From: an uncultured Candidatus Saccharibacteria bacterium
Lineage (GTDB): Bacteria > Patescibacteriota > Doudnabacteria > UBA920
Assembly (NCBI GenBank): GCA_964594755.1
Contig: CAZQMO010000006.1
Coordinates: 1 to 57,903 of the forward strand
Reading direction: 5' to 3'
Length of the DNA stretch: 57,903 nt
This document shows, one piece after another, positions 24,511 to 48,508 of this stretch; the first letter of the stretch is position 1; the number at the start of each line of letters is the position of its first letter. Both the position numbers and the translations under genes were made by a program. A model generated the notes under the pieces. It was not told the DNA's origin, made no database searches, and saw nothing but the letters and a program-made list of their open reading frames with translations.

Positions 24511-24747
24511 ATGATCCAAGGAAGTGGGCTACAAGAAAAAAACGCCAGGTTGAGATTTTTGTTATATATTTTTATGGGAGTCATAGCTTTTGGCTCATTG
24601 TTATACTGGCGGACTGCGGCATTGGACTCAGCTGAGTACGTTGAGTTTGCCACACCAAAGAAAACCAAAACCGAGAAGTTGGAAAATAACTTACGTTCAA
24701 ATCGATACCAAATTGAAACTTTCGACAGTTCGCCGAGCATTAATTAA
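24511..24747 (+). CDS. Small single-TM hypothetical protein
   Basis: Tightly packed between fba and gap; one hydrophobic segment. Confidence 0.6.
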   Translation: MIQGSGLQEKNARLRFLLYIFMGVIAFGSLLYWRTAALDSAEYVEFATPKKTKTEKLENNLRSNRYQIETFDSSPSIN

Positions 24748-24763
24748 TTAGTAATAAAACAAA

Positions 24764-25795
24764 ATGCCAAAAACCAAGCTCGCGATCAACGGCTTTGGCC
24801 GTATTGGCCGCCAAGCTTTTAAGATCGCCTTACAAAAACCAGATTTAGAAATCGTTGCTATCAATGATTTAACCAGCCCAGAAGCCTTGGCTGGTTTGTT
24901 GAAATATGATTCGAACTACGGCAAATACTCAGAAGCTGTAGATTTTGATGAAAAGCATGTGATTGTGGGTGGTCAAAAGTTTCCGGTGTATGCAGAGAAA
25001 GACCCAAGCTTGTTGCCTTGGAAAGATTTAGGTGTAGATGTTGTAATCGAGAGTACTGGCCGCTTCACAGATAGTGAGAAAGCCGGAGCTCATCTACAAG
25101 CTGGTGCGAAGCGAGTGATTATCTCTGCGCCCGCGAAAGATGAAGGAATGACTAAAACTTTTGTATTGGGTGTTAATGAAGATAAGTATTCTGATGAAGC
25201 AATTATTAGTAACGCTTCTTGTACAACTAATTGTATCGCACCAGTTGCGCATGTTTTGCACACCAAGTTCGGGATTCAAAAGGCGATGATGACAACAATC
25301 CACAGTTATACTGCGGAACAAAATTTGGTTGATGGTCCGCCTCCTGGTGGACACGCAAATGATATGCGTCGCGCCCGCGCTGCAGCTACAAATATCGTAC
25401 CGACAACAACTGGCGCCGCGATTTCCGCTACAGAAACTATCCCTGCGTTAAAAGGTTTGTTCGATGGAATGGCGATTCGCGTACCGACACCTGTTGGAAG
25501 TTTGTCTGACTTCACTATGTTGTTGGCGAGAGACGTCACAATCGAAGAAGTTAATCAAGCTTTCACTGATGCTGCAAATCATCCTTTGTATAAAGATAGA
25601 ATTTCCGTGACGACAGATCAAATCGTATCTACCGATATCGTTGGCAATCCTTCATCTGCAATCGTAGATTTATCTCTTACTAAAGTAGTAGGCGGTAATA
25701 TGGTAAAGGTGATTGCTTGGTATGATAACGAGTTTGGTTATTCAAACAGATTAGTAGAGCAGTGTGTGTTAGTTGGTGAAACTTTGAAAAAATAA
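24764..25795 (+). CDS. gap: Glyceraldehyde-3-phosphate dehydrogenase
   Basis: INGFGRIGR, catalytic ASCTTNC, WYDNEFGYS. Confidence 0.98.
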   Translation: MPKTKLAINGFGRIGRQAFKIALQKPDLEIVAINDLTSPEALAGLLKYDSNYGKYSEAVDFDEKHVIVGGQKFPVYAEKDPSLLPWKDLGVDVVIESTGRFTDSEKAGAHLQAGAKRVIISAPAKDEGMTKTFVLGVNEDKYSDEAIISNASCTTNCIAPVAHVLHTKFGIQKAMMTTIHSYTAEQNLVDGPPPGGHANDMRRARAAATNIVPTTTGAAISATETIPALKGLFDGMAIRVPTPVGSLSDFTMLLARDVTIEEVNQAFTDAANHPLYKDRISVTTDQIVSTDIVGNPSSAIVDLSLTKVVGGNMVKVIAWYDNEFGYSNRLVEQCVLVGETLKK

Positions 25796-25823
25796 AAACC
25801 GAACGTGGGAGCGTCCGGTCGGT
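25787..25823 (-). terminator. Probable terminator of the antisense small-ORF pair
   Basis: ACCGA/TCGGT stem followed on the minus strand by TTTTATTTT; stem is weak. Confidence 0.45.
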
Positions 25824-25831
25824 CTTATGGT

Positions 25832-25942
25832 TTAGGCAATACTTGTGAATACCTTATAGAGGAGAATCCCTCCAAAGATGTAGAGTAATGCTAAAAAAAT
25901 GTTCGGAGATTTGGTCTCTAGCCTCTCTAGCCATTGAACCAT
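25832..25942 (-). CDS. 36-aa membrane peptide B (MVQWLERLETKSPNIFLALLYIFGGILLYKVFTSIA)
   Basis: Hand-translated; AGGAGG SD, ATG 25942, TAA 25832, one TM-like segment; below the ORF-track cut-off. Confidence 0.65.
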   Translation of the reverse strand: MVQWLERLETKSPNIFLALLYIFGGILLYKVFTSIA

Positions 25943-26037
25943 AGCAAGCCTCCTATAGCAAGAATGGTCGTAGCTAGGACTCCGAAAGCAACGAGTTTGT
26001 TAAAGAGATTTGCCCCAGCAATCCCTGATAGTTTCAT
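25927..26037 (-). CDS. 36-aa membrane peptide A (MKLSGIAGANLFNKLVAFGVLATTILAIGGLLWFNG)
   Basis: Hand-translated; AAGGAGG SD, ATG 26037, TAG 25927, one TM-like segment. Confidence 0.7.
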   Translation of the reverse strand: MKLSGIAGANLFNKLVAFGVLATTILAIGGLLWFNG

Positions 26038-26085
26038 TTTTCAAGCCTCCTTAAAAAAATAAAAAACGCTCCGAGGAACATACTT

Positions 26086-26114
26086 ATTAAACCATAATTT
26101 ATAAACATTGTCAA
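26086..26114 (-). promoter_or_regulatory. sigma70 promoter for the antisense peptide pair
   Basis: Minus strand TTGACA(26114-26109)-17-TTTAAT with TG extension; overlaps the pgk TTG start. Confidence 0.65.
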
Positions 26115-27340
26115 TTAAGCAGATATCCACAAATAAAAACCTCAAAAATAAGCGCATAATTTTGCGTTTAGATTTGAATGAGCCTATAGATAATAATGGA
26201 AAGTTATTAGATGATTTTCGGATTTCTTCAGCTATACCTACTATCAAAGCTCTTTGGAATAATGGCAATAAATTGATAATCGTCTCTCACTTAGGTCGCC
26301 CTGATGGAGAAGTCGTGAGTGGAATGACCTTACGGCCTGTAGTAGAACGTCTGGCTGAATTATTGGAAACAAAATTTGTAGAAACCAGTAATCAGTTACC
26401 AGATTATGCGATTAAGCATACAATTTTTTTTACCGGTGATCTTAATGACGCGTCTGTTAAAGATTTGTTAACGGCGCAATCCGCCAAGGACATTGTTGTG
26501 TTAGAAAATATTCGATTTTATCCAGGCGAAGAAACTTCGGATCAAAGTTTTGCAAAACATTTGGCCGTGCTGGGTGATGTTTTTGTTAATGAGGCGTTTA
26601 GTGTATCCCATCGTAATGCAGCTTCAATTACAGTTTTGCCAGAATTATTACCAGGCTACGCCGGACCTTTGCTAGCCAGGGAGACGGCAGCTTTGGATGT
26701 GCTGTTGTCGGGTCGTTACAAGAAACCTTTTGTACTCTTGATGGGTGGGATTAAAATTAGCGACAAATCTCAGACACTTATGAACTTAGGAAAATCAGCT
26801 GACCAGATTTTAGTTGGCGGTGGATTAGCGAATTTGTTTCTGGCGGCTCAAGGTTATAATGTCGATGTCCAAAATGATAAGGCCAGTATTTCCGCGGCTA
26901 AACAGATTTTATTAAATTTCAAATCCAAAATCGTACTGCCGATTGACGCGACTTGCTATAGTGCTGGTCAACGTACTGGCAGTAAAGTTGTGGTAAAGAA
27001 AATTCCGGCAATATCCAAAACTGATAAGGTCTATGACATTGGCCCAGCAACAATTTTGGCATTCACCAAAGTATTGCAAACTGCCGGGACGATTTGCTGG
27101 AATGGACCAATGGGCTACTTTGAAGAAAAGCCTTATCGGGCCGGGACTTTAAGCATGGCTAAAGTGGTCGGCGGACTTGGCAAGCGCAAAGCTTATGTTG
27201 TTGCTGGCGGCGGCGAAACTGTGGCGGCGATTAGGCAATCTGGACAACTTGATCATCTGGACCATGTTTCTACTGGCGGCGGCGCCATGTTGGAATATTT
27301 AGCCGGCAGTAAACTTCCAGGTATAGAAGTATTAAAATAA
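26108..27340 (+). CDS. pgk: Phosphoglycerate kinase
   Basis: RLDLNEP, SHLGRP, LENIRFYPGE, GGIKISDK, WNGPMG, GGGET, STGGGAMLE; start uncertain. Confidence 0.96.
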   Translation: MSIKQISTNKNLKNKRIILRLDLNEPIDNNGKLLDDFRISSAIPTIKALWNNGNKLIIVSHLGRPDGEVVSGMTLRPVVERLAELLETKFVETSNQLPDYAIKHTIFFTGDLNDASVKDLLTAQSAKDIVVLENIRFYPGEETSDQSFAKHLAVLGDVFVNEAFSVSHRNAASITVLPELLPGYAGPLLARETAALDVLLSGRYKKPFVLLMGGIKISDKSQTLMNLGKSADQILVGGGLANLFLAAQGYNVDVQNDKASISAAKQILLNFKSKIVLPIDATCYSAGQRTGSKVVVKKIPAISKTDKVYDIGPATILAFTKVLQTAGTICWNGPMGYFEEKPYRAGTLSMAKVVGGLGKRKAYVVAGGGETVAAIRQSGQLDHLDHVSTGGGAMLEYLAGSKLPGIEVLK

Positions 27341-27428
27341 CGCCTCGGGCGTTTTTTTATTTGGCGCAAAAATGGTATAATTAATTTGAAATCTGACTTA
27401 AGAAATAAAAACTGCAAAAAGAAAATTC

Positions 27429-28677: not shown

Positions 28678-28908
28678 ATGGTGGAATTAGGAATTTGGGA
28701 ACACTACAAGGGTGGCCGATACGAAGTAGTAATCAATGCCTTACTAGAAAACAGTGAAGAACCTGCAGTAGTTTATCGAGCTTTGTATGAAAACAACAAG
28801 TCAGAATACTGGATTCGGACCGAGCAAGATTTTTTAGCTATGGTTGAAGTCGCAGGCCAACAAGTACCAAGATTTAAATTAGTGGAGCTTCATGGCAAAG
28901 ACTTATAA
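28678..28908 (+). CDS. DUF1653-like small protein
   Basis: HYKGGRYEV...VVYRALY...WIR...F pattern. Confidence 0.75.
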   Translation: MVELGIWEHYKGGRYEVVINALLENSEEPAVVYRALYENNKSEYWIRTEQDFLAMVEVAGQQVPRFKLVELHGKDL

Positions 28909-39362: not shown

Positions 39363-39563
39363 ATGGTTAATGAGATTGATGGTAAATCCAAGAGGGTTTC
39401 CATTCAGAAAGATGGAGATTTGACTCCTCAAGCCGCGGCGATCGCTAATCCACAATTTGTAGCTGCCCAAAAGGCAATTCAGCCCATGCTTAAACGCATT
39501 GACGATTCTCGTCGTCTGAGCGGGGAAGATATGATGTGGACAGCCAATACCAAAGCTGATTAA
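39363..39563 (+). CDS. Small hypothetical protein (paralog of previous gene)
   Basis: SD AGGAGG; DGDLTPQAAA...SRRLSGEDM; terminator GACGC..GCGTC-TTTT follows. Confidence 0.7.
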   Translation: MVNEIDGKSKRVSIQKDGDLTPQAAAIANPQFVAAQKAIQPMLKRIDDSRRLSGEDMMWTANTKAD

Positions 39564-43110: not shown

Positions 43111-43314
43111 TTACTTGTACTCAAATTCGAACTGGTCTGGACGACCAGCTGCCATCCATTTGGCGAGTGATTCTGAAGTTGGCTCTCGCTGGCATTCGCA
43201 ACCACAGGGGCCAGCGTGAATTTCGCCACCTATAGAAATTTGATCTGCACCATGACAACGGTGTTCATATGGCTCATGAACGTTACAGCCATCACAGATA
43301 TTATTTGTATTCAT
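43111..43314 (-). CDS. Small Cys/His-rich hypothetical protein
   Basis: SD AGGAGG; CxxC, HxC and CxCxC motifs; bidirectional terminator AAAAGAGC-CGAA-GCTCTTTT downstream. Confidence 0.65.
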   Translation of the reverse strand: MNTNNICDGCNVHEPYEHRCHGADQISIGGEIHAGPCGCECQREPTSESLAKWMAAGRPDQFEFEYK

Positions 43315-48166: not shown

Positions 48167-48508
48167 ATGGGTAGTAAACATGAACGACGTTACGTTGGTC
48201 GCGATATTCGCAGATCCCGTTCGTTGTATCGAAAATCATTGGTCCGAAATCGGCCCCTAATGATGGAAGTTGTTGAAGACCTACCCATGGCCAGAGAAAT
48301 CACGGCTAAGGGGTTAGAACTCGCAACACTTCCCAAAGGACGATACGAGGTCCGCATTCAGTCTCATCCCAAACCAGAGATGCGCGGCCGCCAAACCAAG
48401 TGGGTTGTGGCAGACTGCAATGGTCATCAAGTCGGTTTGGCGAAGAATTTTATTCGCAAGTCCCTTGAACCTTACGGTGTGGTTAGATTTTTTCTCTTAG
48501 GCACCTAG
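48167..48508 (+). CDS. Basic orphan hypothetical protein
   Basis: Promoter TTGACA(48094)-16-TATGCT, SD AAGGAGG, terminator GCGAGCG..CGCTCGC downstream. Confidence 0.65.
   Translation: MGSKHERRYVGRDIRRSRSLYRKSLVRNRPLMMEVVEDLPMAREITAKGLELATLPKGRYEVRIQSHPKPEMRGRQTKWVVADCNGHQVGLAKNFIRKSLEPYGVVRFFLLGT

What the first reader, a model, noticed from the sequence alone, without database searches (positions are those of the whole stretch)
25832..26114. Hidden antisense operon of two 36-aa membrane peptides splits gap from pgk
Seen: on the minus strand a TTGACA-17-TTTAAT promoter precedes two ORFs of 111 nt each that overlap by 16 nt. Both are preceded by the same AGGAGGCTTG, and the second SD is embedded in the first ORF (codons IGGL). 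Each has one hydrophobic helix, and a terminator-like stem faces gap. The -35 box overlaps the pgk start codon. Both ORFs are missed by the ORF track. Inference: a small-protein module (type I toxin-like, holin-like or enzyme-modulating) whose transcription would also collide with gap-pgk read-through.
Basis: partly seen in the sequence, partly recalled or inferred. Interest (0 to 1): 0.72.

Follow-up and report, generated by a model that had tools for sequence, protein, structure and literature searches.

The report
Conserved pair of tiny membrane proteins
Two overlapping 36-codon genes on the opposite strand between gap and pgk are real, conserved genes for single-helix membrane peptides found in only one clade of candidate-phyla-radiation (Doudnabacteria-like) bacteria; they form a new small-protein family of unknown function, and the first peptide comes in swapped 'head' versions.

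Summary

**The two ORFs are real genes.**
- The same opposite-strand unit fills the gap-pgk spacer in 11 further lineages, with GAP 80-94% and PGK 63-87% identical. A 13th lineage keeps pepA with a different second gene.
- The unit is promoter, SD, pepA, SD inside pepA, pepB start overlapping a pepA Trp codon, then a hairpin with a U-tract.
- The least-diverged pair gives pN/pS of 0.14 and 0.17 in the proposed frames; the other five frames give 0.45 or more.
- Terminator stems covary. The promoter and terminator match the clade's own style, as seen at pgk/eno.

**The family is new and narrow.** There are no hits in Pfam, NCBIfam, PHROGs, PADLOC, PDB, phages or plasmids. Only five clusters match among 1.84 billion protein representatives.

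**Unexpected result.** The pepA N-terminal head falls into discrete classes that cut across the well-supported GAP+PGK tree.

**Most likely mechanism (inferred).** The peptides are a translationally coupled, stoichiometric pair of small membrane proteins, expressed as an independent unit. This fits a vertically inherited accessory or regulator better than a classical type I toxin or a holin. Collision with gap-to-pgk read-through is plausible but untested.

The parts
26109..26114 (-). -35 hexamer TTGACA of the peptide operon; overlaps the pgk TTG start codon (26108-26110) by 2 nt
   Evidence: Read directly. It is invariant in all 13 lineages. It belongs to one of only three exact TTGACA-17-TWNAAT sites in the window.
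26086..26095 (-). Extended -10 block ATGGTTTAAT (TG + TTTAAT); predicted transcription start about 26079
   Evidence: It differs by one base from the clade's invariant eno promoter block ATGGTATAAT. The motif with at most 1 mismatch occurs 13 times in the window against 4.5 expected. The block is conserved as TTTAAT, TTAAAT, TTCAAT or TTTTAT in relatives.
26038..26079 (-). Short 5' leader (about 42 nt) with a small 5'-terminal hairpin (26079-26068, GTTCC-TC-GGAGC) and SD1 AGGAGG (26051-26046)
   Evidence: A GTTC-loop-GAAC hairpin recurs in L084, L085, L088 and L089. An SD precedes pepA in every lineage.
25927..26037 (-). pepA (pep1), 36 aa: polar N-terminal head (class I), one TM helix (residues 15-33), C-terminal W-x-x-G
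   Evidence: pN/pS is 0.14 in this frame for L082 vs L092, and at least 0.45 in the other five frames. Mean hydropathy of the best 19-residue stretch is 2.16.
25945..25954 (-). SD2 (AGGAGG + CTTG) embedded in the pepA codons I-G-G-L, 6 nt upstream of the pepB ATG
   Evidence: A GGAGG-type SD sits 6-12 nt before the pepB ATG in 10 of 11 complete lineages. It is absent in L089.
25832..25942 (-). pepB (pep2), 36 aa: short head with an S-P motif, then one TM helix with an invariant Gly. Its ATG overlaps the pepA Trp codon (A-TGG), giving a 16-nt overlap
   Evidence: pN/pS is 0.17 in this frame. It is already a called gene in the public collection.
25787..25820 (-). Intrinsic terminator: hairpin 25820-25797 plus U-tract 25796-25787. 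The U-tract overlaps the gap stop codon (25793-25795)
   Evidence: One search lists it on the minus strand only. Hairpins of -10 to -21 kcal/mol with compensatory upper-stem changes and a U-rich tail occur in all 9 lineages examined. The tail style matches the pgk terminator.
24764..25795 (+). gap (GAPDH), convergent neighbour; no plus-strand U-tract follows the shared hairpin
26108..27340 (+). pgk, divergent neighbour; TTG start, no SD. Only a -10-like CATAAT (26093-26098) lies upstream on the plus strand

Best explanation
The gap-pgk spacer is filled by an independent minus-strand transcription unit. It encodes two translated small membrane proteins, pepA and pepB.

**Shown**
- Both ORFs, their ribosome-binding sites, the promoter block and a minus-strand-only terminator are conserved across a whole clade of Doudnabacteria-like CPR bacteria.
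- Both ORFs evolve under purifying selection in their proposed frames.

**Inferred**
- Transcription starts near 26079, driven by a consensus -35 and an extended -10, and ends at the hairpin inside the last gap codons.
- Ribosomes load at a strong SD, which is rare in this genome, and translate pepA.
- pepB is translationally coupled to pepA. Its SD lies in pepA codons and its ATG overlaps a pepA Trp codon, so the two peptides are made in a fixed ratio.
- Each peptide is too short for co-translational targeting. Each inserts post-translationally as a single C-terminal TM helix carrying a short polar N-terminal head.
- The two helices associate in the membrane. The pair then acts as a small accessory or regulatory subunit of a larger membrane component, or of the membrane itself, rather than as a tightly repressed toxin.

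The pepA head is an exchangeable module. Its discrete classes do not follow the species tree.
For: **Conservation**
- The same architecture sits between gap and pgk in window, L082, L092, L094, L085, L088, L089, L090, L096, L097 and L098. L084 is cut by its contig end. L099 keeps pepA only.
- Independent gene callers had called one or both small genes in several contigs.

**Coding signal**
- For L082 vs L092, non-overlapping parts: pepA has 7 synonymous changes per 24.7 sites against 3 nonsynonymous per 74.3. pepB has 4 per 20.2 against 2 per 60.8.
- These frames give the lowest pN/pS of all six frames.
- In distant pairs, pN was below pS in all but one comparison.
- Conserved peptide motifs are W-L-E-x-H-S-P-[LV]-K-F with an invariant Gly in pepB, and G-G..L-W in pepA.

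**Signals**
- Only 11 of 50 large ORFs have an SD, and all nine AGGAGG-N4-9-ATG sites in the window open ORFs.
- The promoter block is invariant and matches the clade's eno promoter style.
- The terminator covaries and is U-tailed only on the minus strand.

**Against a toxin or mobile reading**
- The unit is present in every clade member sampled, at one fixed locus.
- It matches no phage or plasmid sequence and no known family.
- The mRNA fold is ordinary.

**Insertion route**
- The post-translational route for peptides under 45-50 aa is taken from PMC12648545.
Against: - There is no expression or proteomic evidence of any kind.
- Heteromer formation is inferred only from translational coupling and co-inheritance.
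- The pepA Gly-Gly may be kept by the embedded SD rather than by helix packing. It is lost in L099, where pepB is absent, and in L089, where the SD is absent.
- L099 replaces pepB with an unrelated 78-aa ORF, so pepA can exist without pepB.
- The -10 lacks the canonical A at position -11.
- No candidate partner protein was identified.
- The discrete, tree-incongruent pepA head classes are more typical of loci involved in antagonism or recognition than of housekeeping subunits.
Confidence: 0.6

Rival explanations
1. Type I toxin-like or excludon-like module. One or both peptides are membrane-damaging toxins. The gap-to-pgk read-through transcript is fully complementary to the peptide mRNA and acts as its antisense antitoxin. 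Head-on RNA polymerase collision adds further repression. A fall in glycolytic-operon transcription would then release peptide synthesis.
For: - The peptides have type I toxin size and shape: 32-42 aa with a single TM helix.
- gap has no plus-strand U-tract after the hairpin in any lineage.
- The spacer has no canonical plus-strand promoter, so pgk transcription probably crosses the cassette in antisense.
- Overlapping, translationally coupled ORFs recall mok/hok (own knowledge).
Against: - No dedicated sRNA promoter or conserved antisense block was found.
- The SD is strong, the leader is about 42 nt, and there is no unusual mRNA structure. Type I toxin mRNAs typically need processing and are translationally locked (PMC12648545).
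- The unit is single-copy, strictly syntenic and intact in all 13 lineages. It is not patchy, multicopy or associated with mobile elements.
- It matches no known toxin family.
Confidence: 0.15
2. Polymorphic interaction module for antagonism and immunity, kin or host recognition, or phage-receptor variation. pepA presents a variable head. pepB, or the 78-aa protein in L099, is its cognate partner or immunity factor. Alleles are kept by balancing or diversifying selection and are exchanged between lineages.
For: - The pepA heads form discrete classes: class I in window, L084, L089 and L099, class II in L082, L092, L094, L090, L096 and L097, class III in L088 and L098. L085 is an orphan.
- Within a class, z is 7-21. 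Between classes, z is below 3.
- No class is monophyletic in any of 500 bootstraps of a well-supported GAP+PGK tree.
- This is not a frameshift artefact.
- The second gene is replaced in L099.
Against: - There is no double-glycine leader, lipobox, transporter, immunity gene or receptor gene nearby.
- pepB is a single family that diverges continuously.
- Nucleotide identity shows no recent transfer, so the classes are ancient. Differential loss of ancestral paralogues could give the same pattern.
- Only 13 lineages were sampled, and the tree rests on two genes.
Confidence: 0.15
3. The peptides are not functional proteins. The spacer is conserved as a regulatory region (a bidirectional promoter, the pgk leader, or an antisense RNA), and the ORFs are by-products.
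For: - The most conserved nucleotides are the promoter block next to pgk and the terminator. The ORF interiors are highly diverged.
- No expression data exist.
Against: - The ORFs, their SDs and the ATG/Trp overlap are kept even though nucleotides are saturated.
- pN/pS is lowest in the proposed frames, and amino-acid motifs are conserved.
- No Rfam match was found, and the fold is not more stable than shuffled sequence.
- Chance rate is 2 in 5000 for one sequence alone.
Confidence: 0.04
4. Holin-like or phage-derived lysis peptides.
For: The only support is the general shape, a small single-TM peptide.
Against: - There is no significant PHROGs hit and no match in phage genomes or viral contigs.
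- There are no phage genes nearby; the locus sits within a glycolytic cluster.
- The peptides lack the charged C-terminal tail typical of holins (own knowledge).
Confidence: 0.02

Closest known systems
Bacterial small membrane proteins that act as accessory subunits or regulators (for example CydX, KdpF, AcrZ, MgtS; reviewed in PMC12648545)
   Same: They are under 50 aa, have a single TM helix and come from overlooked sORFs with their own ribosome-binding site. They are vertically inherited, and being too short for co-translational targeting they insert post-translationally.
   Different: There is no sequence relationship and no adjacent partner gene. Here two peptides are encoded as an overlapping, coupled pair in their own opposite-strand operon. 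One of them has swapped head classes.
hok/mok/sok and other type I toxin-antitoxin loci
   Same: The product is a small hydrophobic peptide. Two overlapping reading frames are translationally coupled. An RNA complementary to the peptide mRNA could plausibly exist.
   Different: No dedicated antisense sRNA gene was found. There is no long structured leader or sequestered SD. Both products are TM peptides, whereas Mok is not. The locus is fixed, single-copy, universal in the clade and shows no link to mobile elements.
Class IIb two-peptide bacteriocins (for example lactococcin G, plantaricin EF)
   Same: Two adjacent genes encode two small helical, membrane-active peptides made in equal amounts. 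Small-residue motifs lie in the helices. Allelic diversity is present.
   Different: There is no double-glycine leader and no immunity or ABC-transporter genes. The peptides are classical hydrophobic TM anchors rather than cationic amphipathic peptides. The setting is a housekeeping gene cluster in a CPR bacterium.
Excludon-type convergent/divergent antisense arrangements (described in Listeria)
   Same: An opposite-strand unit sits between co-oriented genes, so a read-through mRNA for the downstream gene would be antisense to it.
   Different: Read-through is only inferred here. The classical excludon involves long antisense transcripts that have been mapped experimentally.

Membership tests
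Bacterial small membrane proteins (sORF-encoded, 50 aa or less) | Conserved ORF under purifying selection | tested here: met
   The ORFs are kept in 12-13 lineages. pN/pS is 0.14 and 0.17 in the proposed frames only.
Bacterial small membrane proteins (sORF-encoded, 50 aa or less) | One hydrophobic TM segment | tested here: met
   The 19-residue windows have mean hydropathy 2.16 and 2.05. A TM core is conserved in all homologues.
Bacterial small membrane proteins (sORF-encoded, 50 aa or less) | Translated and membrane-located in vivo | not testable with these tools
   Needs tagging, Ribo-seq or mass spectrometry.
Type I toxin-antitoxin | Dedicated antisense or divergent sRNA antitoxin gene | tested here: not met
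   No plus-strand promoter-like site lies in the spacer. No conserved nucleotide block exists apart from the peptide promoter and terminator. Read-through antisense RNA from gap remains possible.
Type I toxin-antitoxin | Translationally locked or processed toxin mRNA (PMC12648545) | tested here: inconclusive
   The leader is short (about 42 nt) and the SD is AGGAGG. The whole-transcript fold gives z = -1.33, with 19 of 200 shuffles folding as well. No lock is evident, but this rests on prediction only.
Type I toxin-antitoxin | Toxicity on expression | not testable with these tools
   Needs expression assays.
Type I toxin-antitoxin | Sequence membership in a known toxin family | tested here: not met
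   Pfam, NCBIfam and PADLOC gave no significant hits.
Holins | Homology to phage holin families or a phage lysis-cassette context | tested here: not met
   PHROGs gave only hits with E above 0.05 to unknown-function families. There are no phage or viral matches. The neighbours are glycolytic genes.
Class IIb two-peptide bacteriocins | Double-glycine leader plus adjacent immunity and ABC-transporter genes | tested here: not met
   The peptide N-termini carry no leader motif. The flanks are gap and pgk in every lineage.
Entericidin A/B-type toxin/antidote lipoprotein pair | Signal peptide with a lipobox Cys | tested here: not met
   No lipobox or conserved Cys appears in either family alignment.
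Known non-coding RNA families | Rfam covariance-model match | tested here: not met
   The gathering-threshold scan of the window found only a tRNA. The relaxed scan of 25700-26250 gave only hits with E above 2.

The most novel reading that the evidence does not exclude
The cassette is a polymorphic, exchangeable small-peptide module. Discrete pepA head alleles are maintained across species boundaries. Its expression is wired antisense into the glycolytic gene cluster, so the gap-to-pgk read-through RNA and head-on transcription repress the peptides, which in turn impede pgk. This would couple central-carbon transcription to a strain-specific membrane activity such as toxin/immunity, dormancy or host/kin recognition in an episymbiotic CPR bacterium.
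Probability: 0.15. Interest if true: 0.75.

Novelty: new member of a known kind. Interest (0 to 1): 0.5.

Why it matters
CPR/Patescibacteria genomes are tiny and most of their lineage-specific genes are uncharacterised. Genes under 50 codons are also routinely missed by annotation.

This case adds several things:
- It is a comparatively well-supported pair of clade-specific small membrane proteins. Only one of the two was annotated.
- It comes with a full map of its promoter, coupled ribosome-binding sites and terminator.
- It shows that strong SDs in an SD-poor genome flag real small genes.
- It gives a usable promoter and terminator grammar for this clade.
- It raises two testable questions: why the pepA head exists in tree-incongruent classes, and whether an opposite-strand unit wedged exactly between gap and pgk modulates expression of the glycolytic genes.

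If the peptides prove to be accessory subunits or strain-specific factors, they would offer a handle on CPR membrane biology.

Tried and rejected
**Searches that found nothing**
- Direct homology searches with the window peptides found nothing: the word-indexed protein search and the metagenome pattern scan.
- tblastn against 80 gap loci from GTDB representative genomes gave only chance hits. The nearest of those genomes (L001-L003, PGK 48-55% identical) lack the cassette and have short spacers or a different insert.
- The second metagenome scan, with the PGK N-terminus, gave one distant locus, L081, which I did not use.
A single-sequence scan found nothing.

**Methods that failed**
- RNAalifold on the terminator alignment failed because loop indels broke the register. 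I replaced it with per-sequence folds.
- My first extended -10 pattern had the wrong spacer length and missed the site itself. The corrected search is.
- The first bootstrap script timed out and was re-implemented.

**Hypotheses rejected**
- pepA and pepB as tandem paralogues: hhalign probability 0.5%.
- pepA head classes as frameshifted versions of each other.
- A conserved plus-strand ORF antisense to pepA: the products are unrelated, have no SD, and give a higher pN/pS.
- The 26-aa TTG ORF at 26034-26114: it starts inside the -35 and therefore lies upstream of the transcript.
- The weak PDB hit to the glycophorin A TM helix (E = 0.018): I treat this as compositional, not as homology.

Full report
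**1. Observation**

On the minus strand of the 312-nt gap-pgk spacer there are two ORFs of 111 nt each.
- pepA is at 25927-26037 and encodes MKLSGIAGANLFNKLVAFGVLATTILAIGGLLWFNG.
- pepB is at 25832-25942 and encodes MVQWLERLETKSPNIFLALLYIFGGILLYKVFTSIA.
- They overlap by 16 nt.

Each ORF is preceded by AGGAGGCTTG, at 26051-26042 and at 25954-25945. These are the only two copies of that decamer in the window. The second copy lies in the pepA codons I-G-G-L.

TTGACA (26114-26109), 17 nt and TTTAAT (26091-26086) lie upstream, and the -35 overlaps the pgk TTG start by 2 nt. A minus-strand terminator follows: a hairpin at 25820-25797 and then TTTATTTTTT. Its U-tract overlaps the gap stop codon.

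Two caveats apply. The generic promoter scan did not list the promoter, because TTTAAT lacks A at position 2. pepB, but not pepA, already exists as a called gene for this contig in the public protein collection.

Shuffling the spacer gives two SD+ATG ORFs of at least 30 aa on one strand in only 2 of 5000 trials.

**2. Context**

Most large ORFs in the window are on the plus strand. The local order is pfkB-like kinase, fba, a 78-aa membrane ORF, gap, [pepB pepA on the other strand], pgk, eno, DUF1653, iPGM.

The nearest genomes among GTDB representatives are CPR MAGs labelled Doudnabacteria or Saccharibacteria, with about 70% GAP identity. They lack the peptides and have a 62-nt spacer, a 165-nt spacer or an unrelated 136-aa insert.

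**3. Conservation**

A PGK search found closer relatives, at 61-85% identity. Their contigs, together with contigs reached through peptide hits, give 12 further lineages.

Eleven lineages, counting the window, have the complete architecture: window, L082, L092, L094, L085, L088, L089, L090, L096, L097 and L098. That architecture is:
- TTGACA, 17 nt, TT[T/A/C]AAT;
- a short leader, an SD, and pepA of 34-42 aa;
- a GGAGG inside pepA (absent only in L089);
- a pepB ATG overlapping a pepA Trp codon (A-TGG), with pepB of 32-36 aa;
- a hairpin plus U-tract abutting the gap stop codon.

L084 is cut off by its contig end. L099 keeps pepA, but pepB is replaced by a non-overlapping 78-aa basic, Cys-rich ORF with its own SD. 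That ORF has no Pfam match.

Gene callers had independently called one or both small genes in several of these contigs.

In a GAP+PGK tree, all cassette-bearing lineages form one clade with 100% bootstrap support, separate from the cassette-less L001-L003.

**4. Coding evidence**

The least-diverged informative pair is L082 vs L092. In the non-overlapping parts:

| ORF | Synonymous changes / sites | Nonsynonymous changes / sites | pN/pS |
|---|---|---|---|
| pepA | 7 / 24.7 | 3 / 74.3 | 0.14 |
| pepB | 4 / 20.2 | 2 / 60.8 | 0.17 |

All five other frames give pN/pS of 0.45 or more and mostly contain stop codons.

Distant pairs are saturated, with pS 0.6-1.0 against pN 0.3-0.55.

pepB is a single family with the motif M-x-x-W-L-E-x-H-S-P-[LIV]-[KR]-F, followed by a TM helix with an invariant Gly. 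pepA shares a TM helix ending in G-G-x-x-L-W-x-x-G. The two families are not detectably paralogous.

Each window peptide has one strongly hydrophobic 19-residue stretch at residues 15-33.

**5. Expression signals in the clade's own grammar**

The pgk-eno spacer supplies an internal standard. It holds a canonical plus-strand terminator (hairpin plus TTTTTTTATTTGG) and an invariant AAAATGGTATAATTAA block, which is an extended -10 promoter.

ATGGTATAAT with at most one mismatch occurs 13 times in the window against 4.5 expected, mostly upstream of genes. The peptide promoter is the same block with one change (ATGGTTTAAT) plus a perfect -35. It is one of only three exact TTGACA-17-TWNAAT sites in 58 kb.

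The peptide terminator has the same tail style as the pgk terminator. It folds at -10 to -21 kcal/mol in all nine lineages examined. Upper-stem positions change in a compensatory way, for example G-U, G-C or A-U at one position and C-G or U-A at another. A U-tract is present only on the minus strand.

The genome is SD-poor. Only 11 of 50 large ORFs have an SD, and gap, pgk and eno have none. All nine AGGAGG-N4-9-ATG sites in the window open ORFs. The two strong SDs here are therefore meaningful.

No Rfam family matches the spacer. The predicted transcript is not unusually structured (z = -1.33).

**6. Distribution and relation to known families**

| Search | Result |
|---|---|
| pepA profile vs 1.84 billion protein representatives | Five clusters, all peptides of this type |
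| Word-indexed profile search | Only clade members |
| Pfam, NCBIfam, PHROGs, PADLOC | No significant hit |
| PDB | Weak, compositional match to the glycophorin A TM helix |
| Phage and plasmid genomes, viral contigs | No match |
| Literature on CPR small proteins or type I systems in Patescibacteria | Nothing specific |

**7. An unexpected feature: pepA head classes**

The first 20 residues of pepA, covering its polar head, fall into discrete classes.
- Class I is G-[IL]-A-G-A-[NH]-L-x-[NK]-K, in window, L084, L089 and L099.
- Class II is M-N-[FL]-N-P-K-..-[ED]-[ED]-D, in L082, L092, L094, L090, L096, L097, P0126 and P0127.
- Class III is in L088 and L098.
- L085 is an orphan.

Within a class, similarity gives z = 7-21. 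Between classes, z is below 3.

The concatenated GAP+PGK tree (739 columns, 500 bootstraps) has these supported groupings:
- window with L082/L092 at 100%, then adding L085 at 100% and L088 at 97%;
- L089 with L098 at 94%;
- L090 with L097 at 100%.

No head class is monophyletic in any bootstrap replicate.

The window's head DNA resembles that of distant L089 (z = 7.2) but not that of its sister L082 (z = 0.6). No other-class head is hidden in another frame.

Segment identities show no recent transfer, so the classes are old. Ancient allelic exchange, or differential loss of ancestral paralogues, could each explain the pattern.

**8. Mechanism**

The following is shown: a conserved, selected, two-cistron small-protein unit with its own promoter-like, SD and terminator signals on the minus strand.

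The following is inferred:
- Transcription runs from about 26079 to the hairpin.
- pepA translation is efficient.
- pepB translation is coupled to pepA through the embedded SD and the ATG/Trp overlap.
- Both peptides insert post-translationally, since peptides under 45-50 aa cannot use co-translational SRP targeting (PMC12648545).
- The two helices associate in the membrane as a small accessory or regulatory complex.

I rate the 'real coding unit' part at 0.9 or higher, and the full mechanistic statement at about 0.6.

The toxin/excludon rival is kept alive by two absences. gap has no plus-strand terminator, and the spacer has no canonical plus-strand promoter; only a -10-like CATAAT at 26093-26098 is present. 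pgk mRNA may therefore be antisense to the peptide mRNA.

Against that rival, the accessible SDs, the short leader, the strict synteny and the universal presence in the clade differ from the type I hallmarks summarised in PMC12648545. The head-class pattern and the gene swap in L099 support a polymorphic-interaction rival instead.

**9. Verdict**

This is a new, clade-restricted family pair within the known kind 'bacterial small membrane proteins'. It has an unusual placement and an unexplained allelic structure.

No expression data exist. The function and the antisense interplay remain hypotheses.

Noticed in passing
window 24511-24747 (+): A 78-aa ORF with an N-terminal TM segment sits between fba and gap. 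It is conserved at the same position (72-79 aa) in all cassette-bearing relatives and has no Pfam match. It is a third uncharacterised small membrane protein embedded in the glycolytic cluster.
   Followed up: partly
window 26108-26161 (+): The deposited pgk product for this contig is 392 aa (P0002). It starts 18 codons downstream and so truncates the conserved N-terminus. Relatives are 410 aa, and the only plausible start is TTG at 26108, which has no SD.
   Followed up: partly
whole window: The genome is SD-poor: 11 of 50 large ORFs have an SD-like motif, and glycolytic genes have A/T-rich leaders. All nine AGGAGG-N4-9-ATG sites open ORFs.
   Followed up: partly
window 39363-39563 (+), 43111-43314 (-), 48167-48508 (+): Three further small ORFs (66, 67 and 113 aa) are preceded by perfect AGGAGG SDs in otherwise 'empty' intergenic stretches. 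The 67-aa one is Cys/His-rich. They are possible unannotated small genes.
   Followed up: no
window 27339-27381 (+): The pgk terminator (27339-27353 plus a T-run) is followed by an invariant extended -10 promoter block, AAAATGGTATAATTAA (27372-27381 core), for eno. It is conserved in six lineages. pgk and eno are therefore separate transcription units.
   Followed up: partly
L099 2077-2313 (-): In one lineage pepB is replaced by a 78-aa basic, Cys-rich ORF (MFRGRKRRKKKYDGALVFCPKCC...) with its own SD. It has no Pfam match.
   Followed up: partly
window 26068-26079 (-), and the same position in L084, L085, L088, L089: A small GTTC-loop-GAAC hairpin lies at the predicted 5' end of the peptide mRNA. 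It may be a 5'-end stabiliser.
   Followed up: no
L001 5030-5440 (+): In a more distant Doudnabacteria MAG, the gap-pgk spacer instead holds an unrelated 136-aa plus-strand ORF. This spacer is a recurrent insertion point.
   Followed up: no
window 28678-28908 (+): A 76-aa DUF1653-type ORF lies between eno and iPGM and overlaps the iPGM start by 17 nt. It is conserved in all relatives.
   Followed up: no
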